From: Myxococcota bacterium
GTDB lineage: Bacteria; Myxococcota_A; UBA9160; JAFDDA01
NCBI GenBank assembly: GCA_965228475.1
Contig: OZ245817.1
Location: 3,168,001 to 3,232,000 of the forward strand
Direction of reading: 5' to 3'
Length of the DNA: 64,000 nt
The notes under the pieces were generated by a model that saw only the letters and a program-made list of their open reading frames with translations, did no database searches and was not told the DNA's origin. Shown one piece after another: positions 6,891 through 21,697 of this stretch. Both the position numbers and the translations under genes were made by a program. Numbering within the stretch: position 1 is the first letter of the stretch; each line of letters opens with the position of its first letter.

Positions 6891-6920
6891 TTGACGGGAA
6901 GCGAAAATTAAGCGAAAGTC
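6891..6920 (+). promoter_or_regulatory. Candidate damage-inducible promoter/operator of imuAB
   Basis: TTGACG-N17-GAAAGT containing the direct repeat GCGAAA-ATTAA-GCGAAA; 24/30 identical to the element upstream of dnaE2. Confidence 0.7.
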
Positions 6921-6947
6921 TTCCGGGTCAGGAGGTCTGCGCCCCCC

Positions 6948-7697
6948 ATGCGCATTCGACGTCCCGGCATCGCCTCCGGCGCGGCTGCCCCCGTGGCCGC
7001 GGCCGGAGGGGATGCCGGGGCCGTTGCAGCCCTGCTCCGAGATCTCGGCCCCCAGCTCCGCCGCGGGGAGAAGCTCGACGACTCCCTCGCCCAGGCCCGG
7101 GAATCCCTCCCCCGCGACGCCACGGGAATCCCCGGCGTCGATGCCCTGCTCGGGGGAGGCCTCCCCCGCGGCCGCATCCTCGAGATCAGCGGGCCCCGCT
7201 CCTCGGGCCGGACCTCCCTCGCCCTCGGCTGCCTGGCGCGCCTGACCCGCGCCGGCGAGGTGGCCGCCTGGGTGGACGTCGCCGACGCCCTGGATCCGCC
7301 CTCCGCCGAGGCCGCCGGCGTAGTGCTGCAGCGCCTGCTCTGGGTGCGCAGCCCGGGCCTCGCCGAAGCCCTGCGCGCGACGGAGCGCCTGCTCGCCACG
7401 AGCGGGTTCGCCCTGGTCGTGCTCGACCTCGACGCCCCGGCGGCGGTGCCCCGCGCGGGGGACACGGCCTGGCTGCGGCTCGCGCGCCAGGCCTCGGGCT
7501 CGCGGACCTCCCTCGCCCTGCTCTCGCAGGAGCGTCAGGCCGGCGCGTTCTCGGACCTCGCCCTCGAGCTCGAACCCGCGGGCGCGCGCTTCTCGCCGAC
7601 GCCGGCCCTGCTCGAAGGTCTCGCCGCGCGGGCGGTGCTCGTGCGGGATCGGCTCGGCCCCTCGGGCCGGAGCTGCGATCTCGAGCTCACGGCATGA
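6948..7697 (+). CDS. imuA: ImuA / RecA-like translesion synthesis accessory protein
   Basis: TGIPGVDALLGGGLPRG, degenerate Walker A GPRSSGRTS, WVDVADALDP; coupled to imuB by ATGA; SD AGGAGG at 6930-6935. Confidence 0.85.
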   Translation: MRIRRPGIASGAAAPVAAAGGDAGAVAALLRDLGPQLRRGEKLDDSLAQARESLPRDATGIPGVDALLGGGLPRGRILEISGPRSSGRTSLALGCLARLTRAGEVAAWVDVADALDPPSAEAAGVVLQRLLWVRSPGLAEALRATERLLATSGFALVVLDLDAPAAVPRAGDTAWLRLARQASGSRTSLALLSQERQAGAFSDLALELEPAGARFSPTPALLEGLAARAVLVRDRLGPSGRSCDLELTA

Positions 7698-9370
7698 ACC
7701 AGCGAGCTCATGGCACGAGCCGGCCCGCGCGCCGCGTGGCGTGCCTGCTCGTCCCGAACCTCCCCCTGGCCGCCGAGCTGCGCGCGCTCCCCGAGCACGA
7801 GCGGGAGGACGGGCGACGCCCCTGGATCGTCGTCTCCGCTCCGGGCTCGCGCGGCTTCGTCGTTGCCGCTTCCCCGGAAGCCAGGCGCCAGGGAATCCAC
7901 GTCGGCGCGCCCGTCGTCCATGCCCGGGCGATCTGCTCGGAGCTCGGCGTGAAGGTCGCCTCCCCGGCGCTGCAGCGCGCGGCACGCGATGCGCTGCTCG
8001 ACGTCGCGCTCTCCTTCTCGCCTCGCGTCGCGGCCGACCCTCCGAGCGCCGGCGCCTTCGCCGGAGAGGCCGCCGTCTTCCTCGACGCCTCGGGCATCGG
8101 AAAGCTCTTCCGCAGCGAGGAGTCCTTCGCTTCGGCGCTGGTCGAACGCGCGGCCTCCCTCGGCCTCCCCGCCCTGGCCTGCGTGGCCGCTTCGCGCAGC
8201 CTCTCGCGCCTGGCCGCACGCCGCCTCACCCTCGAAAGCGAGACCGCCCGCGTCCAGACCGTGCCTCCCGGGCACGAGCCGGACTTCCTCGCCCCCCTGC
8301 CCGTCGACCTGCTCGACCCTTCGGATGCCCTGGCCGCCTCCCTCACGCGCTTCGGCATCCGCACCGTCGGCGCCCTGCTCGCCCTGCCGGCGGCCGGGCT
8401 CACCACGCGGCTCGGCCCCGAAGCCGCCCACCTGCTCGCGCGCATGCGCGGCGAAGCCGCCGAACCGCCGCTCCCGCGCCCGCGCGAGACGCGCTGCGAA
8501 GAGGCCCTCGACCTCGAGCACCCGATCGAGCGCCTCGAGCCCCTCGGCTTCGTGCTGCGCGGCATGCTCTCGCGCCTGGTCGAACGCCTCGAAGTCCGCG
8601 GCCTGGCCGCCGGCCCGCTCGAGCTGCGCATGGAGCTCCTCGGCGGGCGCAGCGACGCCCGGCGCATCGGCGTGGCCGCGCCCACCAACGAAGTCCGTAC
8701 CCTGCTCCGGCTCGTGAACCTCGCCCTCGAGCAACGCTCGCCCGAGGCGCCCGTCGCCGCCCTCGCCCTCGCCACGCGCGGCCGCCCGGCCCGGCGCGAC
8801 CAGCTCGACCTCTTCCGCCCCACCGGCCCGGCGCCCGCCGAGCTTTCCCGCACGCTCGCGGAGCTCGAAGCCCTGTGCGGCGAAGGCCGTGTCGGTGCCC
8901 CCGCCGTGCGCGACGAGCACCGGCCGGACGCCTACGCCCTCACCCCCTTCACGCTCCAGGGCGAAACCGCCCTCGCCGAGCGAACCCGAACGCGCGCCGT
9001 CCGTAGCGGAACAGATCACGAGCGAACCCGAACGCGCGCCGTCCGTACGGGGGCGGAGGCCGTGCGCGAAGGCCCGGGCGTCGCGTACGAAACGGCGGCC
9101 CCGCCCCGGCTCGGCCTGCGTGCGCTGCGCCCCCCGGAGCCCGTCGAGGTGACGGCGCCGGGGGGAACGCCCCAATGGCTGAACGGCCGCATCGCCAGCG
9201 GGCGCATCGTGGCCCGCTCGGGCCCCTGGCGGACCACCGGCGGCTGGTGGTCACCCGAACGCCACCACGCCTTCGACCACTGGGACGTCGCCACGAAGGA
9301 GGGCACGGTCGTGCGTCTGCGTCACGACCGGAAGACCCACCGCTGGGAGATCGACGGCGTGTACGACTGA
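7694..9370 (+). CDS. imuB: ImuB, inactive Y-family polymerase with C-terminal DUF6504-like (GPW...WW...YD) domain
   Basis: Y-family fold lacking catalytic acidic residues; clamp motif QLDLF; C-terminal GPWRTTGGWW...IDGVYD. Confidence 0.88.
   Translation: MNQRAHGTSRPARRVACLLVPNLPLAAELRALPEHEREDGRRPWIVVSAPGSRGFVVAASPEARRQGIHVGAPVVHARAICSELGVKVASPALQRAARDALLDVALSFSPRVAADPPSAGAFAGEAAVFLDASGIGKLFRSEESFASALVERAASLGLPALACVAASRSLSRLAARRLTLESETARVQTVPPGHEPDFLAPLPVDLLDPSDALAASLTRFGIRTVGALLALPAAGLTTRLGPEAAHLLARMRGEAAEPPLPRPRETRCEEALDLEHPIERLEPLGFVLRGMLSRLVERLEVRGLAAGPLELRMELLGGRSDARRIGVAAPTNEVRTLLRLVNLALEQRSPEAPVAALALATRGRPARRDQLDLFRPTGPAPAELSRTLAELEALCGEGRVGAPAVRDEHRPDAYALTPFTLQGETALAERTRTRAVRSGTDHERTRTRAVRTGAEAVREGPGVAYETAAPPRLGLRALRPPEPVEVTAPGGTPQWLNGRIASGRIVARSGPWRTTGGWWSPERHHAFDHWDVATKEGTVVRLRHDRKTHRWEIDGVYD
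8977..9047 (+). repeat. Perfect 29-bp direct repeat (period 42, in frame) inside the imuB linker
   Basis: CGAGCGAACCCGAACGCGCGCCGTCCGTA at 8977-9005 and 9019-9047; encodes ERTRTRAVR twice. Confidence 0.9.
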
Positions 9371-9391
9371 GGGGAACCGGGAGTCCAGCTC

Positions 9392-9423
9392 CCTGGCTAC
9401 ACGTGAAGCCACCTGGCTACACG
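9392..9423 (+). promoter_or_regulatory. 12-bp direct repeat (period 20) upstream of a methyltransferase; candidate regulator site
   Basis: CCTGGCTACACG at 9392-9403 and 9412-9423. Confidence 0.4.
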
Positions 9424-9473
9424 CGCGAACGAAAGATGAGCTAAGCCTTGCGCCTCACCCACACGAGGAACCC

Positions 9474-10076
9474 ATGACGGCCGCACTGCGCAAGCGCAAG
9501 AACGAAGCCACGGATTCACCCGACGACCGGCTCGAGTTCCTGCGAGGTTTCTTGAAGCGGCCGAAGGAAGTCGGCTCGATCATCCCGAGTTCGCGCTTCC
9601 TCGAGCGGCGCATCCTCCGCTGCGCGCGGGTCGAAGAGGCCAGGACCGTGGTCGAGCTCGGCCCCGGGACCGGCGGCACCACCCGCGCCCTCCTGCGCGC
9701 CATGCCGAGCGATGCCCGCTTGATCTCGATCGAGATCAACCCGAGCTTCGTCGAGCACATGAAGCGCAACCTCCGCGACCAGCGGCTCACCGTCCTCGAG
9801 GGCAGCGCCACGGACGTGGGCGCCCTGCTCGCCGCCGAGGGCCTCGACGGCGCCGACGTGATTCTTTCGGGGATTCCCTTCTCGACGATGCCCCGCGCCC
9901 TCGGGATCGAGATTCTCGAGAACGTGCGCAACGCCCTGCACCCGGACGGCCGCTTCGTCGCCTACCAGTTCCGCGACCGCGTCGAACACCTCGGCCGCGA
10001 GGTCTTCGGCCGCCCGCGCATCCAGACCGAGATCCGCAACGTCCCGCCGATGCGGGTCTACGTCTTCGACCGCTGA
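9474..10076 (+). CDS. Class I SAM methyltransferase, phospholipid N-methyltransferase (PmtA)-like
   Basis: FLKRPKEVGSIIPSS, VVELGPGTG, ILSGIPF, FVAYQF. Confidence 0.8.
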   Translation: MTAALRKRKNEATDSPDDRLEFLRGFLKRPKEVGSIIPSSRFLERRILRCARVEEARTVVELGPGTGGTTRALLRAMPSDARLISIEINPSFVEHMKRNLRDQRLTVLEGSATDVGALLAAEGLDGADVILSGIPFSTMPRALGIEILENVRNALHPDGRFVAYQFRDRVEHLGREVFGRPRIQTEIRNVPPMRVYVFDR

Positions 10077-10104
10077 CGGCGCGCCGGCCCGGGCCCGCCG
10101 CCCC

Positions 10105-11070
10105 TCACGGGCAGATGAGGTCGCTCGTGCCGCACAGGTTCTGCCCGAGTTCGATCCCGCCGCGGATCTGATCGTCGTTCTCCGGGTCGCCGTCGTTCTG
10201 GCGAGCGACGTTGTCGATGAGCCCCCAAGTCCGGAGCGGGGCCGGGAACTGCGGCGCCAGGATGCCGTTGTCGAAGCCGTAGCCGTCGTTGAACGTCGCC
10301 ACGTTCCCCTTGGCGAGCCCGCCGGTCGTGTTGCCGGGCCCTCCGCTCAGCGAGAAGCCGTCGCCCCCGTTCGAGCGGGCGGAGTTCCCGATCACCGTCG
10401 ACCCGGCTCCGGCCGAGAAGCCCGAGCCGCCGTTGGCGAAGGACGCGTTCCCGTGGAACGTCGACCCGCTCGAGGCCACGATGCCCGCCGAACCGTTCCC
10501 GTGCGAGGTGCACTTCGAAACCGAGCTGGCGGCCCCGGCCGTGATGCCGAGGGCCCCGTTGGACCCGGCGATCACGTTCGTGACAACGGAGAAGCTCCCG
10601 ACCCGAACGCCGTCGCTGCCGCTCTCGGTGACGATCACGTCCGTGACGATCGCCTCGCTACTGAGGGCGATGCCATCCGCCGCCACGCCGGTCACGCGGC
10701 CGTTCCGCACGGAGGTCCCTCGCTGGTCCGACGAGATCCCGTTGCCGTCCCCGTTGCACTCGGTGTTGATCTGGAACGCCGAACACGTGAGGCCGAAGCC
10801 CGCGAGGTCGAGGCTCACGTCTTCTTCCCTGATCTCGATGAAGTCGGTGCTCTGCGCCCCACCCCCGCTCGACCGCGAGAGGTTGCTCGTCAGGCGGTAG
10901 CTGCCCGAGCGCGTGATCGTCACCGGGAAGCCCGCCGCGTCGCCGATGAAACAGCCGGTCTGGACGGCGCAGGTCTGGTTGATTTCGAGAACGCCGGAAG
11001 CCGCGGCGGGGAGCGGGAACCCGAGGAGCCACGACGACGACACGAGGAGGAGGGAGCGCTTCATCTTCAT
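10105..11070 (-). CDS. Secreted right-handed parallel beta-helix repeat protein
   Basis: Signal peptide; FPVTITRSGSYRLTSNL; repeated N-x-x-x-x-NG-x-x-G coils. Confidence 0.75.
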   Translation of the reverse strand: MKMKRSLLLVSSSWLLGFPLPAAASGVLEINQTCAVQTGCFIGDAAGFPVTITRSGSYRLTSNLSRSSGGGAQSTDFIEIREEDVSLDLAGFGLTCSAFQINTECNGDGNGISSDQRGTSVRNGRVTGVAADGIALSSEAIVTDVIVTESGSDGVRVGSFSVVTNVIAGSNGALGITAGAASSVSKCTSHGNGSAGIVASSGSTFHGNASFANGGSGFSAGAGSTVIGNSARSNGGDGFSLSGGPGNTTGGLAKGNVATFNDGYGFDNGILAPQFPAPLRTWGLIDNVARQNDGDPENDDQIRGGIELGQNLCGTSDLICP

Positions 11071-11107
11071 CGCGCCATCGTACACCGCGGCGGATCGGCG
11101 GGGGGTT

Positions 11108-12331
11108 CTAGTCCTCGCCGCGCTTGATCTGGTCCGAGAGGCCCGCGCGCTCGGCGGCGCCCGCCTCGCCACGCACGACCGCCGTGCCGCCGAAGCGGTC
11201 CGCGATCTCGTCGAGGGCCTGGTTCAGGCGGGCGCGCCGGCGGCGCCCCTCGGCGTCGAACAGCGGGAGCTGGGAATCGGCGCTCGCCACGAGGTTCGTC
11301 ACGCCGACGCCGAGCAGACGGATCGGCTCCGGCAGGCCCCACTGGCGCAGGAGCGAAGTGGCGAGCGCGCCGATCGTGCGGCCATCGTCGGTCGGGTCGG
11401 GCAGCGTCGCGCGGCGCGTGACGAGCGAGTAGCCGCGCGGTCCGGGCGCGCGCCGGCGCCCGAGCTTCACCTTCAGCACGACCGTGCGGGCGACGAGGTC
11501 GCTCCTGCGCAAGCGCCGCGCGACCGACTCCGCGTGGCGGACGATCGCCCGCTCGAGCCGCTCGAAGTCGTCGACGTCCGTAGCGAAGGTGTTCTCCTCG
11601 CTCATGCTGACCGCTTCGCGGTAGGCCTCGACCTCGCGCACGTCTTCCCCGCGAGCGAGCCGGGCGAGGGAGGTACCCCAGTCTCCAAGCGCCGCGTGGA
11701 TCCGCTTCGAGTCCGCGCGGGCGAGATCGGCGACGGTGCGGAAGCCCGCCCGCTCGAGCCGCTCCCCCGCCACCGGCCCGACGCCCCAGAGCCGGCGGAC
11801 GGGGAGCGGGTGGAGGAACGCGAGCAGGTTCTCGCGCGTCACCTCGAGCAGCCCGTCGGGCTTGGCGGAACCGCTCGCGAGCTTCGCCACCATCTTGATC
11901 GGCGCGAGCCCGACGGAGATGGCGAGGCCCGTCTCCTCCCGCACGGCCGCGCGAAGCCGCTCCGCGACGCCCCGTGCCGGGCCGAGCAGGCGCTCCGTCC
12001 CCGTGAGATCGAGGAAGGCCTCGTCGAGGGAGAGCCCTTCGACGGCCGGCGTGAAGCGCTCGAAGATCTCGAAGATGCGGCGCGATTCGCGGCGGTAGCG
12101 CCGCATGTCGCCCGAGAGGAACACGGCGTCCGGGCAGCGGCGCTTCGCCTCGTAGCCCGGCATGGCCGAGTGGATCCCGAACTTCCGCGCTTCGTAGCTC
12201 GCTGCGGAGACGACCCCGCGCGGGCCGCCACCGCCGACGACCACCGGCCGCCCTCGCAGCTCCGGCCGGTCCCGCTGCTCGACGGAGGCGTAGAACGCAT
12301 CCATGTCCGCATGGGCGATCACGCGTGCCAT
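11108..12331 (-). CDS. dinB: DNA polymerase IV
   Basis: HADMDAFYASVE, SYEARKFG, SLDEAFLD, KPDG; clamp motif QLPLF. Confidence 0.95.
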   Translation of the reverse strand: MARVIAHADMDAFYASVEQRDRPELRGRPVVVGGGGPRGVVSAASYEARKFGIHSAMPGYEAKRRCPDAVFLSGDMRRYRRESRRIFEIFERFTPAVEGLSLDEAFLDLTGTERLLGPARGVAERLRAAVREETGLAISVGLAPIKMVAKLASGSAKPDGLLEVTRENLLAFLHPLPVRRLWGVGPVAGERLERAGFRTVADLARADSKRIHAALGDWGTSLARLARGEDVREVEAYREAVSMSEENTFATDVDDFERLERAIVRHAESVARRLRRSDLVARTVVLKVKLGRRRAPGPRGYSLVTRRATLPDPTDDGRTIGALATSLLRQWGLPEPIRLLGVGVTNLVASADSQLPLFDAEGRRRRARLNQALDEIADRFGGTAVVRGEAGAAERAGLSDQIKRGED

Positions 12332-12389
12332 GGAACCGGAGTCTAGGCGTGCCCCCGAGCGGCCGCCCGCAACGCCGGACGAGCCGGGA

Positions 12390-13139
12390 CTAGGCGCGCC
12401 GCCGCAGCGCGAGCGCCCCGCCGGCCAGCAGCACGAGCGCCGCCGTCGCGGGCTCCGGCACCGGGTCGTAGTCGTAGGTCAGGGTCACCGTCCCGGCCGT
12501 GGCCGAGACGTCGAGGACCGCCTCGAAGTCGTCGACGTTGTCTCCGACGAACATCACCCCGATCGGGAGCGAGACGTAGAGCCCGATCTCCGTCACGGCG
12601 CCGGTCCCGAGGAAGTCCGCAAGCTCGAACTCGCCGAAGGGGGTATCGAGGGTCTCCACGGTCGTCCAGGCGACGAAGTCCCCGAGCTCGTCGAAGCAGC
12701 CCGGATCGAAGCCCCCGTTTCCGCAGGAGACCGCGGCGTTGCCGAACTCGGTGGCCAAGGTTTCGATCACGGATCCCGTCTCCGTGTACCCGAAGAAGAA
12801 GATCGGCTCGCCCAGGAGATCGATGGATGCGTCGTGGGGAAGGGAGTCGTCGCCGATCGCGGTCACCTCGATCGAGAAGTTCCAGCCGTAGTCGAACTCC
12901 GCCTCGAGGGTGACGCTGTTCAGCGTCCCGAGGCTCGGATCGAACTGCATCAGGCCGGAGATGACCGCCTCGCCCAGGAACCCGCCGGAGCCGGTGCTCG
13001 TGATGTCGTAGAAATTGTTCTCTTCGATCGAGCCGAAGGTCCCGGTGGTCGAGATCGTGTCCGCCTGGGCGGCGGCCGGCAGCAGGACGGCGAACGTGGC
13101 AGCGAGAAGCGTGAGGCGAGAGCGGGAGGGCAGCGGCAT
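12390..13139 (-). CDS. PEP-CTERM sorting-domain protein (choice-of-anchor E-like)
   Basis: Signal peptide; QFDPSLGTLNSV; C-terminal VPEPATAALVLLAGGALALRRRA. Confidence 0.85.
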   Translation of the reverse strand: MPLPSRSRLTLLAATFAVLLPAAAQADTISTTGTFGSIEENNFYDITSTGSGGFLGEAVISGLMQFDPSLGTLNSVTLEAEFDYGWNFSIEVTAIGDDSLPHDASIDLLGEPIFFFGYTETGSVIETLATEFGNAAVSCGNGGFDPGCFDELGDFVAWTTVETLDTPFGEFELADFLGTGAVTEIGLYVSLPIGVMFVGDNVDDFEAVLDVSATAGTVTLTYDYDPVPEPATAALVLLAGGALALRRRA

Positions 13140-13258
13140 CGACGGAGCTCCGGCGACCCTTCCCAGCGAACGCGCAGCCTAACCGGGGCTGCGGAGCCAC
13201 TCAAGGAAAACTCGCCCAAGTCGCTGTTTCTCCAGGACGACTGGGTATCTTCCGGCCC

Positions 13259-15073
13259 ATGAGCCAAGCCGTTGCCGACAGCTTCGACGCCGGGCCCGCC
13301 GCCGGCGTCCAATGGGATCTCACCGACCTCTACGCGGGCGCCGACGACCCCCGCATCGACGCCGACCTCGACCAGGCGAAGGAGCGCGCCGAGCGCTTTG
13401 CGGATGCGCATCGCGGACGCATCGGGGCCCTCGAACCCGCCGATCTCGCGGTCGCCGTCGACGAGCTCGAAGGCATCTCGGAGCTCGTCGGGCGCGCAGG
13501 CGCCTTCGCCGGCCTCCTGTTCGCCCAGGACACGAGCGACCCGCGCCACGGGGCGCTCCTGCAGCACGTCCAGGAGCGAAGCTCCGCGATCCAGAACGCG
13601 CTCGTCTTCTTCGAGCTCGAATGGGTCGGGCTCGACGACGCGGCCGCAGAGGCGCTCCTCGCGGACCCGGCCCTCGCCGGCCGGCGTCACCACCTCGAGA
13701 GCGCGCGGCGCTACCGCCCCCACGTCCTCGGCGAAGCCGAGGAGCAGATCCTCGAAGACCTCTCGAACACCGGCGAGCGGGCCTGGAGCCGCCTCTTCGA
13801 CGAAGTCCTCGGCAGCGCGCGCTTCTCGCTCGAAGACGGCGGCGAGACCCTCGACCTCTCCGAGGAAGAAGTGCTCTCGCGCCTCTACCACCCGGAGCGG
13901 GAGACCCGCCGCCGCGCGGCCGCCTCCCTCACCCAGGGGCTGCGGGCGAACGAGCGCGTGCTCGGCTTCATCTTCAACGTCCTCACGCAGGACAAGGCCA
14001 CGCGCGACCGCCTGCGCAGCTACCCCCATCCGAAGCGCAGCCGGAACCTCGCCAACGAGATCGACGACGAGACCGTGGACGCCCTGCTCGCGGCCACCGA
14101 GCGCGGCTTCCCGACGGTGGCCCGCTACTACCGGCTGAAGGCGAAGCTCCTCGGCCTCGACCGCCTCGAGGACTACGACCGCTACGCCCCGCTCGGCGAG
14201 GCCCAGGGGGTCCGGAGCTTCGATGACGCCCGCCGCATCGTGCTCGACGCCTACGGCGATTTCTCGCCGCGCATGGCCGAGATCGCGGACCTCTTCTTCG
14301 AGCGCCGCTGGATCGATGCGGAGCTCCGCCCCGGGAAGCGCGGCGGCGCCTTTTCCGCGTCGACGGTGCCGAGCGTGCACCCCTACGTGCTGCTGAACTA
14401 CACGGGCAACCTGCGCGACGTGATGACCGTCGCCCACGAGCTCGGGCACGGGGTTCACCAGTACCTCGCCCGCGACCGCGGCCTCTTCGAGCAGGACACG
14501 CCGCTCACCACCGCCGAGACCGCCAGCGTCTTCGGCGAGATGCTCGTCTTCCGCAGCCTCGTCTCCCAGGAGAGCGACCCGCGCAATCGGCTCGCCCTGC
14601 TCTGCGGGAAGCTCGAAGACGCCTTCGCCACGGTCTCGCGCCAGGTCGTGATGACGCGCTTCGAGGAGAAGCTCCACGCGGCGCGCCGGAGCGAGGGCGA
14701 GCTCGCGACGCCGCGGGTGAACGAACTCTGGCTCGAAGCCAACCGGCCGATGTTCGGCGATTCCGTGAATCTCTCCGAAGACTACGGCTACTGGTGGCTC
14801 TACATCCCGCACTTCGTCCACTCGCCCTTCTACTGCTACGCCTACGCCTTCGGCGAGCTGCTCGTGCTGGCGCTGCTCCGCCGCTTCGACGAAGAGGGCG
14901 CGTCGTTCGTTCCGAAGTACGAGGCACTCCTTGCGGCGGGCGGCTCCCAGGCGCCCCCGGCGCTCCTCGCGAAGCTCGGGCTCGACATCACGGACCCGGC
15001 CTTCTGGGACGGTGGCCTCGCCGTGCTCGACGGCATGGTGAGCGAAGCCGAGGAGATCGCGGCCTCGCTCTAG
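13259..15073 (+). CDS. pepF: M3 family oligoendopeptidase F
   Basis: WDLTDLY, KRGGAF, AHELGHGVH zinc motif, AETASVFGE, FYCYAY. Confidence 0.92.
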   Translation: MSQAVADSFDAGPAAGVQWDLTDLYAGADDPRIDADLDQAKERAERFADAHRGRIGALEPADLAVAVDELEGISELVGRAGAFAGLLFAQDTSDPRHGALLQHVQERSSAIQNALVFFELEWVGLDDAAAEALLADPALAGRRHHLESARRYRPHVLGEAEEQILEDLSNTGERAWSRLFDEVLGSARFSLEDGGETLDLSEEEVLSRLYHPERETRRRAAASLTQGLRANERVLGFIFNVLTQDKATRDRLRSYPHPKRSRNLANEIDDETVDALLAATERGFPTVARYYRLKAKLLGLDRLEDYDRYAPLGEAQGVRSFDDARRIVLDAYGDFSPRMAEIADLFFERRWIDAELRPGKRGGAFSASTVPSVHPYVLLNYTGNLRDVMTVAHELGHGVHQYLARDRGLFEQDTPLTTAETASVFGEMLVFRSLVSQESDPRNRLALLCGKLEDAFATVSRQVVMTRFEEKLHAARRSEGELATPRVNELWLEANRPMFGDSVNLSEDYGYWWLYIPHFVHSPFYCYAYAFGELLVLALLRRFDEEGASFVPKYEALLAAGGSQAPPALLAKLGLDITDPAFWDGGLAVLDGMVSEAEEIAASL

Positions 15074-17166
15074 GGCTTCACGGTGGCTTCGGCCAGGGGC
15101 GCGAGAACCTTCCGCAGCCGCAGCCCGACGATCGAACCGTCGGGGTAGAGGACCGCCGGAAGCCCGGGCGGAGCGGTCAGCCGGAAGCGCCGTGCCGGCC
15201 CCCCGTCGACGCCGTAGGCGTCGCCGCGGAAGAGATCGATCCAGCGCCCGGGCGGCAGCGTCGCCGGGAAGGTCACGGCCTCCGCCGAATCCGGCTGGGG
15301 ATTCGGCACGACGAGCAGTTCGCTTCCGATCAGGAACGATTCGGGCCGTCCGCTCTGGAAGGCCGGCTCCTCCGGGTGGTAGAGCCAGAGCGGCCGGAGA
15401 ATCGGGAGCCCCCGCTCGGCCACCTGCCGCACGAGCTCCGCCCGGTAGCCCGCCCAGGCCGCGTGGATGCGGCCGGCGCGCACGAGGGCCGCGCGGCCCT
15501 CGGGTGCATCGAGAACCCGTGCATCGACTTCGTAGAGCGGCATGAACCCGGCGAGTCCGAGCGCCGCCGCCCCTCCGGCGGAGACCGTGGAGACGGGGAA
15601 CCCCGAGATCCCCGCCGAGAGCACGCGGGCGAGGGTCGCCTCGTCCTCGAGGGCACCCGCCACGAGCACGGCCACGTGCCCGGGGCTTCCGACGTAGGCC
15701 GTCTCGGCGAGCAGGACGCCCTGCTCGCCGTCGAGGAAGGCCCGGCTCGCCGTACTCGTGGCCTGGGCCGCGAAGCGGTTGTGCTCGTCCGCACTCGCGC
15801 CGTCGTCCCCGGCGCGAACGCCGAAGGGCAGACCCTCGCCGCCGCGCAGGCGGAGGCCCCGGGCGCCCGGTTCGACGCGTCGCGCGCGGGTCTCCTGTCT
15901 CAGACGGGCGCGCGCATCGGCACGCGCGAGATCGACGAGGAGGCCGCCCGCCACCGGGACGACGTCCCCCGCGTCGTCGCGCACCGCATGGGGTTCGAGG
16001 ACGGAGTCTTCGGGCAGCAACGGCCCGGCCGGAAGGATCAGGCGGATTCCCGCGCGGTCGAGCTCCACGGCGAGCGCCTGCCAATCGGGATAGGCGGCAC
16101 CGTCGATCGCGGTCTCGACCTCGGCGGGCGCCGCATCCCGAACGAACAGCGCGGCCGGCATCGTTCCGAGCGAGGCGAGCTCGGCGAGGCGCTCGCGAAC
16201 CGCCGCCGCGCCCCCCTCGACGGCGACCAGCGGGCCCGAGTGGATCCAGGCCGGGAGCCGGAGCTCCCCCGTCGCCCGCGAGAGGAGCCGCACGCGGTCC
16301 TCCGGGCTGCGGACCGCCGCGACCCGGAGCGTGAGCTCCCGCGCGTGCACCTCGGTGCGAAGAACGCCCTCCGTCGCGAGGTCGAAGGCGGCGTACTCGG
16401 CATTCTCCAGCCAGAGCACGGGCCCGCGGGAGCTCAGCGCATGAGGAGCCGGCGCCCGGCTGCCGGGGAAGACGGGAGAGAATCGAGCCCGAAGGCGATC
16501 GAGCGTCGTCGGGCTCGCGCCCTCGAGCCCGACGACGAGGTTGGCGAGGCGCCCGTCGGCCTGGGCGAAGGCTTCGCGCGCGCCGAAGCCGAAGAAGCGC
16601 TCGCCCGGCGCGCGCGCCTGAACGAAGGCGATGCGGTTGAAGGAGGGGTCTTCGAGGCGCACGTGCAGGCGGAGCTGGTTGCGCCCTTCGGGAACGACGA
16701 AGAGTTCGTAGGCGCGCTCGAGCACGCGGCACTTCAAGCGGCCGGTGATGCGCAGCACGTAGAGCTCGAGCTCCGCGCTCTCCACCGTCTGCCGGCTGCA
16801 CCGCTCCTGCACGGCATCTTCGACGTGGGCGTTGCGCCCGGTGCCCACGAGGGCGGACCGCCCGCGCGCGATCTCGAGGAAGGCGCGGCCGGCCACGGTC
16901 TCGAGGGCGGGAACCTCGCCGAGCTCGGGATGGCTCGCCCGGAGGCGCGCATCCTCCCAACCCGTCCCCGCGAGCTCCAGCGTGAAGCGTCCGAGCTCGT
17001 GACGAAAGGGCTCGAAGGGCTGCTCGGCATCCCCGAGGCGCCCGCTCCCGGCGGGCTCCCCCGAGCAGGCGGCCAACAGCGCCCCGGCGAGCACGAGGAC
17101 CCCGCGGCTCCGCCGCCCCACACGTTGCCGGGCAGCGTCGGTCTCCTCCGTGAGGCGTACGCTCAC
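15070..17166 (-). CDS. GH31 (YihQ-like) glycoside hydrolase-fold lipoprotein, catalytic residues apparently lost
   Basis: Lipobox LLAAC; ERFFGFG, LPAWIHSG, GLPILRPLWLYHP, LPPGRWIDLF; expected MADFGE reads LRLRGGE. Confidence 0.7.
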   Translation of the reverse strand: MSVRLTEETDAARQRVGRRSRGVLVLAGALLAACSGEPAGSGRLGDAEQPFEPFRHELGRFTLELAGTGWEDARLRASHPELGEVPALETVAGRAFLEIARGRSALVGTGRNAHVEDAVQERCSRQTVESAELELYVLRITGRLKCRVLERAYELFVVPEGRNQLRLHVRLEDPSFNRIAFVQARAPGERFFGFGAREAFAQADGRLANLVVGLEGASPTTLDRLRARFSPVFPGSRAPAPHALSSRGPVLWLENAEYAAFDLATEGVLRTEVHARELTLRVAAVRSPEDRVRLLSRATGELRLPAWIHSGPLVAVEGGAAAVRERLAELASLGTMPAALFVRDAAPAEVETAIDGAAYPDWQALAVELDRAGIRLILPAGPLLPEDSVLEPHAVRDDAGDVVPVAGGLLVDLARADARARLRQETRARRVEPGARGLRLRGGEGLPFGVRAGDDGASADEHNRFAAQATSTASRAFLDGEQGVLLAETAYVGSPGHVAVLVAGALEDEATLARVLSAGISGFPVSTVSAGGAAALGLAGFMPLYEVDARVLDAPEGRAALVRAGRIHAAWAGYRAELVRQVAERGLPILRPLWLYHPEEPAFQSGRPESFLIGSELLVVPNPQPDSAEAVTFPATLPPGRWIDLFRGDAYGVDGGPARRFRLTAPPGLPAVLYPDGSIVGLRLRKVLAPLAEATVKP

Positions 17167-18476
17167 AGGGCCGCGAGCATCTCGTCGGCGGCGCGCAGCC
17201 CGCTCGTGCACGCGCCTTCGGTGTAGGCCCCGACGAGGTAGTCCCCGGCGAAGGCCAGGCGCGGCGAGCGGTCCGTGCGCTCGAAGAACCCGGCCAGCGC
17301 GCGGGTGTAGCCGGCACGGAACTGCGGGAGCATCGGGTCCCAGCGGTGGACGACGGTCTCGCGCGGCTCGAGCCGGCCGATCGGCGTCTTCGCGAGGTTC
17401 GCGAGCACGCGCTCGGCGATGGCCGTGTCCTCCGCTTCCCAGAGCTCCGCGGCGACGCTCTCGCGCAAGGCGCAGTTCACGAGACCCGCCCCGGCCGGAG
17501 CCTGGCCCTCCTTCCAGTGGTCGACGGCGAGGCCGTAGAGTTCGAGCCCCTCGGGCCGCGGGAAGGCGACGCCGTACCAGGGCAGCGTTTCCGGGGCGCG
17601 ATCGAAGAGCAGGAAGACGATCATGCCGCGCACGTAGTGCACCTGCTCGAAGAAGCCGCGCTCGGCCGGCGTGAGCTTCGGGCAGACGCCGGGCACGAGC
17701 GGGCCCGGCAGAGCGACGACGGCGGCGTCGGCGAGGACGGCTTCTTCGCCAGCGTGGGAGCGGAACTGAATGCGCGCGCCCCCGTCTTCGGTCTCGACGG
17801 AGAGCACCTCGCAGCCGGTTCGCACGTCGAGACCGGCGGCCAGCGTGCGGGTCAGGGTGCCGACCCCGCCCTCGATCGTCTGGAGCTTGAAGTTCTCGCT
17901 CGTGAAGCGGATGGCCTGGAGCGCGAAGGCCGCCGAGAGGTCTTCCGGCTCGCTGTCGAAGGTCGAGGAGAACGCGGGGGCGAGCAGGTACTCGAAGGCT
18001 TCGGCGCCGACCAGGCGGCGCAGGTACGACGCCATGTCCTCGTGGTCGATCGGCGCCGCGCGCTCGGGGTGCCAGGGGTCGAGCCGCGCGCGCTTTCGCC
18101 AGACGTCGTGAAGCAGGCGCGCCAGCCGGAGCTTCGCGCGGCCCGAGAGCAGCGGCGATCGCAGCACCTGGAAGGGCGAGTCGGCGTCGGCCGAATGGAG
18201 CTCGCCGTCGCGCAGGACGGCGTTGTGGGCCTTGCGGAAGGGCTGCACGCGGCTGGCGAGCCCGGTCGCGTCGATCAGGCCGTGGAGGTTGCGGTACGCG
18301 CTCGAGATGAACTGGGCGCCGCGGTCGAGGGTGAAGCCGCCGTGGCGCTCGCTGCGCATGCGGCCCCCGGGCTCGGACTCCGCCTCGAGGACCTGGACGT
18401 CGTGCCCGGCCTGCTGCAGCCGGAACGCCGCCGAGAGCCCGGCGAGGCCCCCACCCACCACCACCACCGATCCCAT
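17163..18476 (-). CDS. FAD-dependent oxidoreductase, protoporphyrinogen oxidase (HemY)/amine oxidase family
   Basis: VVVGGGLAGLSAA, GGRMRS, DRGAQF, AFAGDYL. Confidence 0.82.
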   Translation of the reverse strand: MGSVVVVGGGLAGLSAAFRLQQAGHDVQVLEAESEPGGRMRSERHGGFTLDRGAQFISSAYRNLHGLIDATGLASRVQPFRKAHNAVLRDGELHSADADSPFQVLRSPLLSGRAKLRLARLLHDVWRKRARLDPWHPERAAPIDHEDMASYLRRLVGAEAFEYLLAPAFSSTFDSEPEDLSAAFALQAIRFTSENFKLQTIEGGVGTLTRTLAAGLDVRTGCEVLSVETEDGGARIQFRSHAGEEAVLADAAVVALPGPLVPGVCPKLTPAERGFFEQVHYVRGMIVFLLFDRAPETLPWYGVAFPRPEGLELYGLAVDHWKEGQAPAGAGLVNCALRESVAAELWEAEDTAIAERVLANLAKTPIGRLEPRETVVHRWDPMLPQFRAGYTRALAGFFERTDRSPRLAFAGDYLVGAYTEGACTSGLRAADEMLAAL

Positions 18477-18504
18477 GGCGGGAGTGTAGGCACCGAGTCT
18501 TCCG

Positions 18505-18534
18505 TAGACAGGAGGCAAAAATAAAGCGAAAATC
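18505..18534 (+). promoter_or_regulatory. Candidate damage-inducible promoter/operator of dnaE2 (probably leaderless)
   Basis: TAGACA-N17-GAAAAT containing GCAAAA-ATAAA-GCGAAA; 5 nt separate the -10 from the ATG; 24/30 identical to the imuA element. Confidence 0.7.
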
Positions 18535-18538
18535 GAGC

Positions 18539-21697
<3,159 letters not shown>

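What the first reader, a model, noticed from the sequence alone, without database searches (positions are those of the whole stretch)
6891..18534. Shared 30-bp promoter/operator upstream of imuA and dnaE2: candidate unrecognised SOS-type regulatory motif
Seen: TTGACGGGAAGCGAAAATTAAGCGAAAGTC (6891-6920) and TAGACAGGAGGCAAAAATAAAGCGAAAATC (18505-18534) align without gaps at 24/30. Both are A-rich islands in very GC-rich DNA and sit directly upstream of the two halves of the mutasome. Each reads as -35 (TTGACG/TAGACA)-N17-atypical -10 (GAAAGT/GAAAAT), overlapped by a direct repeat of 11-bp period, GC(G/A)AAA-N5-GCGAAA (reverse strand TTTC-N7-TTT(C/T)). Known: imuABC cassettes are usually LexA-controlled, and the alphaproteobacterial/Acidobacterium LexA box GTTC-N7-GTTC has the same period. 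This motif does not match the E. coli, Gram-positive or Myxococcus xanthus boxes. Inference: a lineage-specific LexA variant, or an activator or alternative sigma factor given the G at -12, defining an uncharacterised DNA-damage regulon.
Basis: partly seen in the sequence, partly recalled or inferred. Interest (0 to 1): 0.8.

Follow-up and report, generated by a model that had tools for sequence, protein, structure and literature searches.

The report
Direct-repeat LexA box, TTCG-N7-TTCG
The shared sequence in front of this bacterium's two error-prone DNA-polymerase gene blocks is real and conserved across its order, and it is most likely the docking site of the DNA-damage repressor LexA, in a sequence version related to, but not matching, the published alphaproteobacterial box.

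Summary
Observation confirmed: the two 30-mers match at 24/30 and are each other's only close match in 5.0 Mb. The core is an 11-bp-period direct repeat, TTCG-N7-TTCG (read here as CGAA-N7-CGAAA), laid over a sigma70-type promoter. In relatives of the same order it precedes dnaE2 (28/29), imuA (28/29), lexA (23/29, profile not trained on lexA) and a PA0069 radical-SAM gene (20/29), and the recA operon in 12/20. It occurs in both orientations, which fits a repressor operator, not an activator or sigma site. It tracks LexA: absent before lexA in 18/18 other Myxococcota, present in many Acidobacteriota, among whose LexAs this one nests. Where LexA helix 3 differs, the repeat becomes TTCAC-N6-TTCAC before lexA, imuA and the radical-SAM gene. 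Two genomes that deleted lexA lack the box before the radical-SAM gene. None of 105 sites matches GTTC-N7-GTTC exactly. Binding and damage induction are untested, and the 2006 Acidobacterium LexA-box paper could not be read. The scan noted this motif before on other genomes. Verdict: new variant of a known kind.

The parts
6891..6896 (+). predicted sigma70 -35 hexamer (TTGACG) of the imuA-imuB promoter
   Evidence: sequence; TTG(A/C)Y lies 9-10 nt before 23 of 25 forward imuA sites
6900..6918 (+). inferred LexA operator; half-sites GCGAAA at 6901-6906 and 6912-6917
   Evidence: 26.0 bits with a profile built from relatives only; 28 of 29 orthologous promoters carry it
6914..6919 (+). predicted -10 hexamer GAAAGT, overlapping the second half-site
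   Evidence: 17 nt after the -35; last T kept in 24 of 25 forward imuA sites
6948..7697 (+). imuA (RecA-like), preceded by AGGAGG at 6930-6935
7694..9370 (+). imuB (IMS family); start may be 7736
11108..12331 (-). dinB (Pol IV); no operator upstream, so not counted in the regulon
   Evidence: no hit above 5 bits
18505..18510 (+). predicted -35 hexamer (TAGACA) of the dnaE2 promoter
   Evidence: sequence; TTG(A/C)Y lies 9-10 nt before 19 of 27 forward dnaE2 sites
18514..18532 (+). inferred LexA operator; half-sites GCAAAA at 18515-18520 and GCGAAA at 18526-18531
   Evidence: 27.4 bits; 28 of 29 orthologous promoters carry it
18528..18533 (+). predicted -10 hexamer GAAAAT, 5 nt before the ATG (likely leaderless mRNA)
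   Evidence: last T kept in 27 of 27 forward dnaE2 sites; start codon exactly 6 nt downstream in 13 of 27
18539..21697 (+). dnaE2 (imuC), error-prone DNA polymerase
   Evidence: NF004225 above cut-off

Best explanation
The two sites are most likely LexA operators (SOS boxes) of the direct-repeat type, consensus TTCG-N7-TTCG, laid over predicted ordinary sigma70 promoters of the split mutasome genes imuA-imuB and dnaE2. Inferred mechanism: the genome's single LexA (G000:C1:4314691-4315290, minus strand) binds the repeat and blocks RNA polymerase; after DNA damage, activated RecA triggers LexA self-cleavage, and imuAB, dnaE2, lexA and a PA0069/SplB-like radical-SAM gene are derepressed together. 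Shown: the motif, its conservation, its position, its gene set, its co-occurrence and co-variation with LexA, and LexA's intact cleavage and catalytic residues. Inferred: binding, repression, induction and transcription starts.
For: (1) A profile trained only on relatives' imuA/dnaE2 promoters finds the site before lexA in this genome (29.4 bits) and in 23 of 29 relatives at 15 bits or more (28 of 29 above 10); coding control 0 of 30. (2) Radical-SAM PA0069 gene: 20 of 29 relatives, profile not trained on it; control 0 of 30. (3) Genome scan: 7 hits at 24.8 bits or more, all intergenic, then a gap to 20.3; four are lexA, imuA, dnaE2 and the radical-SAM gene. (4) Orientation and position vary: forward in the -35/-10 spacer at imuA (25 of 26) and dnaE2 (27 of 29), mostly reversed at lexA (19 of 29), reversed over the -10/+1 at the radical-SAM gene (21 of 21). 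(5) It follows the LexA type: own order 26 of 30, own class 2 of 2, other Myxococcota 0 of 18 (12 of these carry the M. xanthus-like GTTCAG), Acidobacteriota 22 of 40. (6) Four Acidobacteriota with helix 3 reading SLN(A/G) have TTCAC-N6-TTCAC before lexA; all 5 non-lexA matches of that pattern lie before imuA (2) or radical-SAM genes (3). (7) G034 and G056 have lexA deleted from the folE-groES interval, no imuA or dnaE2 found, and no box before the radical-SAM gene. (8) LexA passes TIGR00498 and aligns with solved LexAs at the Ala-Gly site and the Ser-Lys dyad.
Against: No binding or expression data. Counts for imuA and dnaE2 use the regions the profile was trained on, and they are the 29 best-scoring of 60 relatives; kin are not independent. 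The helix/operator co-variation is one clade, and the lexA loss is two genomes of one family, possibly one event. Three of the seven top hits in this genome are not known repair genes (higBA-like pair, tcmP-DUF5131, a ferredoxin), and 20 of 61 strict matches in relatives lay elsewhere, mostly before nothing conserved. No site at this genome's recA operon, uvrA, uvrB, recN, ruvAB, ssb or dinB. One 53%-identical LexA of another class (L277) and 18 of 40 Acidobacteriota lexA genes score below 13 bits. G007, G020 and G039 have no lexA found, and G020 and G039 carry boxes; all three also lack the adjacent groES, which points to assembly gaps. G056 keeps one 25.7-bit match (L332). No TTCAC site before dinB in 5 loci of the variant genomes.
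Confidence: 0.9

Rival explanations
1. A different repressor (an XRE protein such as DdiA, or a WYL protein) binds the repeat, and lexA is just one of its targets.
For: In M. xanthus dnaE2 is activated, directly or indirectly, by the XRE protein DdiA, and LexA directly controls few genes (PMC12288472 and PMC9705874, passages). This genome has a WYL gene about 290 bp from one top hit and an XRE/M78 antitoxin behind another.
Against: The operator changes together with LexA helix 3 at lexA, imuA and radical-SAM genes, follows the LexA clade across phyla and is lacking where lexA is deleted. The site near the WYL gene is on its 3' side, not in its promoter.
Confidence: 0.06
2. The motif is an activator site or the recognition element of an alternative sigma factor, which would explain the G at -12.
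For: The forward sites give a non-consensus -10, GAAANT, in nearly all imuA and dnaE2 promoters.
Against: The repeat is reversed in some orthologous promoters (L006, L007, L035) and at most lexA and all radical-SAM promoters, and it lies in the spacer or over the -10/+1. TTGAC and the -7 T are kept as for sigma70; reversed promoters of Acidobacteriota have canonical -10 boxes.
Confidence: 0.03
3. Same mechanism, but already published: this is the Acidobacterium capsulatum LexA box of Mazon et al. 2006, whose consensus (recalled as GTTC-N7-GTTC) may be one species' instance of this repeat. This bears on novelty and does not exclude the best explanation.
For: Same 11-bp period and TTC core; this LexA nests among Acidobacteriota LexAs with the alphaproteobacterial one as sister; A. 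capsulatum LexA is listed as experimentally validated (PMC8565304 Table S2); two Gemmatimonadota lexA promoters of the clade match GTTC-N7-GTTC exactly.
Against: 0 of 105 sites in this order and 0 of 40 Acidobacteriota lexA promoters match GTTC-N7-GTTC; the position of its G is mostly T here, and a G follows TTC in 104 of 105 sites in both halves.
Confidence: 0.35
4. Chance likeness of two A-rich promoters in GC-rich DNA.
For: Column-permuted profiles still give 0-2 hits above 20 bits (maximum 23.7), so single weak hits can be chance.
Against: Conserved in 28 of 29 orthologues of each gene across 12 families with 0 coding-control hits; a strict pattern gives 63 matches against 4 for its reversed control in 41 genomes.
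Confidence: 0.01

Closest known systems
Alphaproteobacterial LexA box GTTC-N7-GTTC (Caulobacter, PMC9578287 Table 1; PMC3323433 and PMC8565304 passages), also attributed to Acidobacterium capsulatum (Mazon 2006; title seen in reference lists, motif recalled)
   Same: Direct repeat with 11-bp period and TTC core; sits on lexA and imuA/dnaE2 promoters; LexA proteins in one clade (SH-aLRT 96, one alphaproteobacterial row).
   Different: The leading G is mostly T (88 and 72 of 105 in the two halves), a G after TTC is nearly invariant, and the spacer is T-rich; 0 of 105 exact matches. LexA identity to the Sphingomonas protein is only 37% and helix 3 differs.
Myxococcus xanthus LexA box CTRHAMRYBYGTTCAGS (PMC9705874, passages)
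   Same: Same phylum; LexA autoregulation; small direct regulon.
   Different: Different sequence and a different LexA clade: other Myxococcota classes have helix STNGVxDH, and 12 of 18 carry GTTCAG; a single Myxococcota LexA clade is rejected (AU p=0.0018). In M. xanthus dnaE2 depends on DdiA (PMC12288472).
Balneolaeota direct-repeat LexA motif TTACACATATTTTWTACATA (PMC7739468, passages)
   Same: Direct repeat; regulon of lexA, translesion polymerases and a radical-SAM gene; found by the same comparative approach and there confirmed by EMSA.
   Different: Different half-site; that LexA was not compared here.
Gram-positive SOS box CGAAC-N4-GTTCG (PMC9578287 Table 1)
   Same: Shares the CGAA half-site.
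   Different: Palindrome rather than direct repeat; the Bacillus lexA promoter scores below threshold.

Membership tests
LexA operator (SOS box) | Motif in the promoter of lexA itself | tested here: met
   G000:C1:4315388, 98 nt upstream; 23 of 29 relatives at 15 bits or more with a profile not trained on lexA
LexA operator (SOS box) | Motif before several DNA-damage genes, overlapping the core promoter | tested here: met
   imuA, dnaE2, PA0069 radical-SAM gene; recA operon in 12 of 20 relatives; not before uvrA, recN, ruvA or ssb here
LexA operator (SOS box) | Cognate LexA with winged-helix domain, Ala-Gly cleavage site and Ser-Lys dyad; RecA present | tested here: met
LexA operator (SOS box) | Operator sequence varies with the LexA DNA-binding helix | tested here: met
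   one clade with SLN(A/G) helix has TTCAC-N6-TTCAC at lexA, imuA and radical-SAM genes
LexA operator (SOS box) | LexA binds the motif, and genes are induced by DNA damage | not testable with these tools
   needs EMSA and expression data
Alphaproteobacterial / Acidobacterium box GTTC-N7-GTTC | Direct repeat with 11-bp period | tested here: met
   count matrices
Alphaproteobacterial / Acidobacterium box GTTC-N7-GTTC | Consensus GTTC in both half-sites | tested here: not met
   0 of 105 sites; G at that position in 1 and 11 of 105; 0 of 40 Acidobacteriota lexA promoters
Alphaproteobacterial / Acidobacterium box GTTC-N7-GTTC | LexA in the same clade | tested here: inconclusive
   one alphaproteobacterial LexA, on a long branch, is sister to the clade at SH-aLRT 96 in a quick tree; A. 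capsulatum LexA itself was not obtained
Myxococcus xanthus LexA box | CTRHAMRYBYGTTCAGS and myxobacterial LexA clade | tested here: not met
imuA-imuB-dnaE2 mutasome | RecA-like ImuA, IMS-family ImuB and DnaE2 | tested here: met
   here split into imuAB and a separate dnaE2 with its own operator

The most novel reading that the evidence does not exclude
One LexA clade spanning Acidobacteriota, Gemmatimonadota and this Myxococcota class (with Alphaproteobacteria as sister) reads 11-bp-period direct repeats, and its natural half-site variants (TTCG, TTCAC, TTACAC, GTTCGG, GTTC) map onto a few helix-3 residues, giving a readable specificity code for how a LexA dimer binds a direct repeat. This class took its LexA from Acidobacteriota, replaced the myxobacterial repressor and rewired a mutagenesis-centred regulon, in some genomes even writing the operator into the coding sequence of pgpA upstream of recA.
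Probability: 0.4. Interest if true: 0.7.

Novelty: new variant of a known kind. Interest (0 to 1): 0.5.

Why it matters
It would give the SOS box for an uncultured Myxococcota class and for much of Acidobacteriota, allowing their DNA-damage regulons to be predicted, and it suggests that the published GTTC-N7-GTTC consensus does not describe most of that phylum. The matched pairs of LexA helix and operator variants make it directly testable which residues set half-site specificity on a direct repeat. The biology itself, LexA control of imuABC, is the expected one.

Tried and rejected
Activator or alternative sigma reading: rejected on orientation flips and geometry. E. coli, Gram-positive and M. 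xanthus boxes: no match by inspection; their lexA promoters score below threshold. RNA evidence: no RNA holder listed. A loose pattern in five genomes was uninformative, with control counts as high as matches. Looking for the variant operator before Y-family polymerases of the TTCAC genomes found none in 5 loci; the pattern search then found it elsewhere. The 20 strict matches away from known targets gave no further known repair gene. Literature: searches found no description of this consensus (0 papers for six spellings). Mazon 2006, Erill 2006 and Erill 2016 are not held, so novelty against them is open. PMC3789691 and PMC1978210 (passages) held nothing relevant. No structure or complex prediction was run, since none of the tools models protein with DNA.
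Full report
Observation. Both 30-mers lie at window 6891-6920 and 18505-18534 and match at 24/30. Each is the other's only close match in the 5.0-Mb, 70% GC genome; against 4338 upstream regions the next best is 18/30. The downstream genes are imuA (6948-7697), imuB (7694-9370) and dnaE2 (18539-21697); a dinB lies between them on the minus strand. Record titles of the closest LexA relatives are mostly Myxococcota or Deltaproteobacteria bins, and an earlier scan note calls this genome an uncultured Myxococcota.

Conservation. I took the 29 best-scoring of 60 relatives in the same order for each gene. The repeat is plain in the raw upstream sequences. A profile seeded on the two window sites and rebuilt from relatives only gives (G/A)CGAA-N7-CGAAA, with CGAA in 53 or 54 of 54 sites in each half. 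It scores 15 bits or more before 28 of 29 dnaE2 and 28 of 29 imuA genes, with 0 coding-control hits; these two counts are on training regions. A strict pattern gives 63 matches in 33 of 41 genomes against 4 for the reversed control.

Regulon. In this genome seven hits score 24.8 bits or more, all intergenic, and the next is 20.3. They precede lexA, imuA, dnaE2, a PA0069 radical-SAM gene, tcmP-DUF5131, a higBA-like pair and a ferredoxin. Independent tests: with the profile trained on imuA and dnaE2 alone, 23 of 29 relatives have a site of 15 bits or more before lexA and 28 of 29 above 10, control 0 of 30 (counted from the listing); 20 of 29 have one before the radical-SAM gene, control 0 of 30. 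A list of canonical SOS genes in PMC8565304 (passage) includes imuA-imuB-dnaE2 and splB. recA ends a pgpA-cinA-thpR-recA operon; of 20 relatives examined (from 40 with a match), 8 have a site at the pgpA promoter and 4 inside pgpA, while this genome has none. No site was found before uvrA, uvrB, uvrD, recN, ruvAB, ssb, recG, recQ or dinB here. Of 61 strict matches in relatives, 41 fell by coordinates (judged by eye) at these targets; the other 20 were fetched and were mixed: four precede an uncharacterised long-ORF family, one is a second copy near imuA, and the rest precede nothing conserved.

Geometry. At imuA and dnaE2 the repeat is usually forward, between TTGAC and a -10 of the form GAAANT whose last T is kept in 51 of 52 forward sites; a start codon follows exactly 6 nt later in 28 of 52, which suggests leaderless mRNAs. 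It is reversed in three orthologues (L006, L007, L035), in 19 of 29 lexA promoters and in all 21 radical-SAM promoters, where it covers the -10/+1. A sigma or activator site would keep orientation and distance; an operator need not. The G at -12 is then a consequence of the overlap (inference).

Which protein. The genome has one LexA that passes TIGR00498 and keeps the cleavage site and catalytic dyad. Its type is confined to this class within the phylum: 59-60% identity in the sister order and mostly 45% or less in other classes. The motif follows it: own order 26 of 30, own class 2 of 2, other classes 0 of 18, of which 12 carry GTTCAG as in the M. xanthus box; Acidobacteriota 22 of 40 chosen across the similarity range; Vicinamibacteria 5 of 6 (13-bit threshold). 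In a 43-row tree the class's LexA nests among Acidobacteriota and Gemmatimonadota, with one alphaproteobacterial LexA as sister; a single Myxococcota clade is rejected (AU p=0.0018; quick tree, and I had seen a faster tree first). Transfer from Acidobacteriota is likely, but the direction is not established. Four Acidobacteriota whose helix 3 reads SLN(A/G) have TTCAC-N6-TTCAC before lexA. A pattern drawn from those promoters gave 8 matches in the four genomes and none in G000: 3 at lexA (circular), 2 before imuA and 3 before radical-SAM genes, one with the same -35/17/GAAAAT/6-nt/ATG layout. lexA was not found in 5 of 61 genomes. Three also lack the adjacent groES, pointing to assembly gaps. 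In G034 and G056 folE abuts groES, so lexA is deleted; imuA and dnaE2 were not found in them, and their radical-SAM genes lack the box. Against: each of these tests is one or two events; L277 has a related LexA and no box; G056 keeps one 25.7-bit match.

Comparison with what is known. The period equals that of the alphaproteobacterial GTTC-N7-GTTC box (PMC9578287 Table 1, PMC3323433 and PMC8565304; passages), which a Sphingomonas lexA promoter shows. The consensus is not met: 0 of 105 sites match, the leading position is mostly T, and G follows TTC in 104 of 105 in both halves. So it works like that box but fails its consensus. Mazon 2006 reported a LexA box for Acidobacterium capsulatum (title seen in reference lists; the motif is recalled; text not held). 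A. capsulatum is the only Acidobacteriota LexA in the part of a 2021 table of validated proteins that I read (PMC8565304 Table S2; no site sequences given). That paper may contain an instance of this motif; I put that at 0.35. Searches found no description of the consensus. Erill 2006 and 2016, and their supplements, could not be seen. PMC7739468 (passages) describes a different direct-repeat LexA motif in Balneolaeota. Earlier scan notes reached the same reading on other genomes; I looked them up after forming mine, and they are not independent support.

Verdict. A real, well-conserved operator, most likely LexA's (0.9); a new variant of the direct-repeat SOS box; interest 0.5. The regulatory logic is expected. 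The added value is the phylum-scale consensus, the helix-operator co-variation and the probable transfer of lexA.

Noticed in passing
L266 (~608-626, oriented to recA), L269 (~612-630), L273 (~646-664), L274 (~597-615): In four genomes of two families a 26-30-bit operator lies inside the pgpA coding sequence, upstream of cinA-thpR-recA, at the same aligned position (IFVLLS/IFVLFS). All four use the TTA codon, which is 0.02% of Leu codons in G000 and 0-1 of 43-48 in their own cinA: a likely coding-embedded LexA site.
   Followed up: partly
L164:1-115 and L176:1380-1500: Both Gemmatimonadota lexA promoters carry tandem TTCGG repeats of 11-bp period with exact GTTC-N7-GTTC matches, pointing to LexA as the binder of the repeat noted in e1-4227833.
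   Followed up: partly
L309:1271, L316:1249, L327:79, L328:1279: The operator, in a TTGAC-TTTCG promoter layout, precedes a long-ORF family (35-43% identical among members) with no Pfam or NCBIfam hit in the first 400 residues and no homologue in G000.
   Followed up: partly
L094:311-2970 (G000:C1:3590810-3593470) and L096:1339-2966 (G000:C1:3445338-3446965): Two of the strongest boxes in this genome precede island-like operons: higB with an XRE/M78 antitoxin and a Beta-protein gene, and tcmP-DUF5131.
   Followed up: partly
L095:2400-3535 (G000:C1:4927061): A 29-bit site lies between a terminator-like hairpin and a small ferredoxin gene, with a WYL-domain gene converging; its target is unclear.
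   Followed up: no
L344 and L345 (G034, G056): Small genomes (2.2 and 2.8 Mb) in which lexA is deleted between folE and groES and the mutasome was not found.
   Followed up: partly
L226, L247, L348: Further half-site variants before Acidobacteriota lexA genes, TTACAC-N5-TTACAC and TTACG-N6-TTACG, each with a distinct helix 3; several Acidobacteriota have lexA directly followed by a Y-family polymerase.
   Followed up: no
window 17163-18490: A flavin oxidoreductase gene starts at 18476 on the minus strand, so its promoter must overlap the dnaE2 promoter back to back.
   Followed up: no
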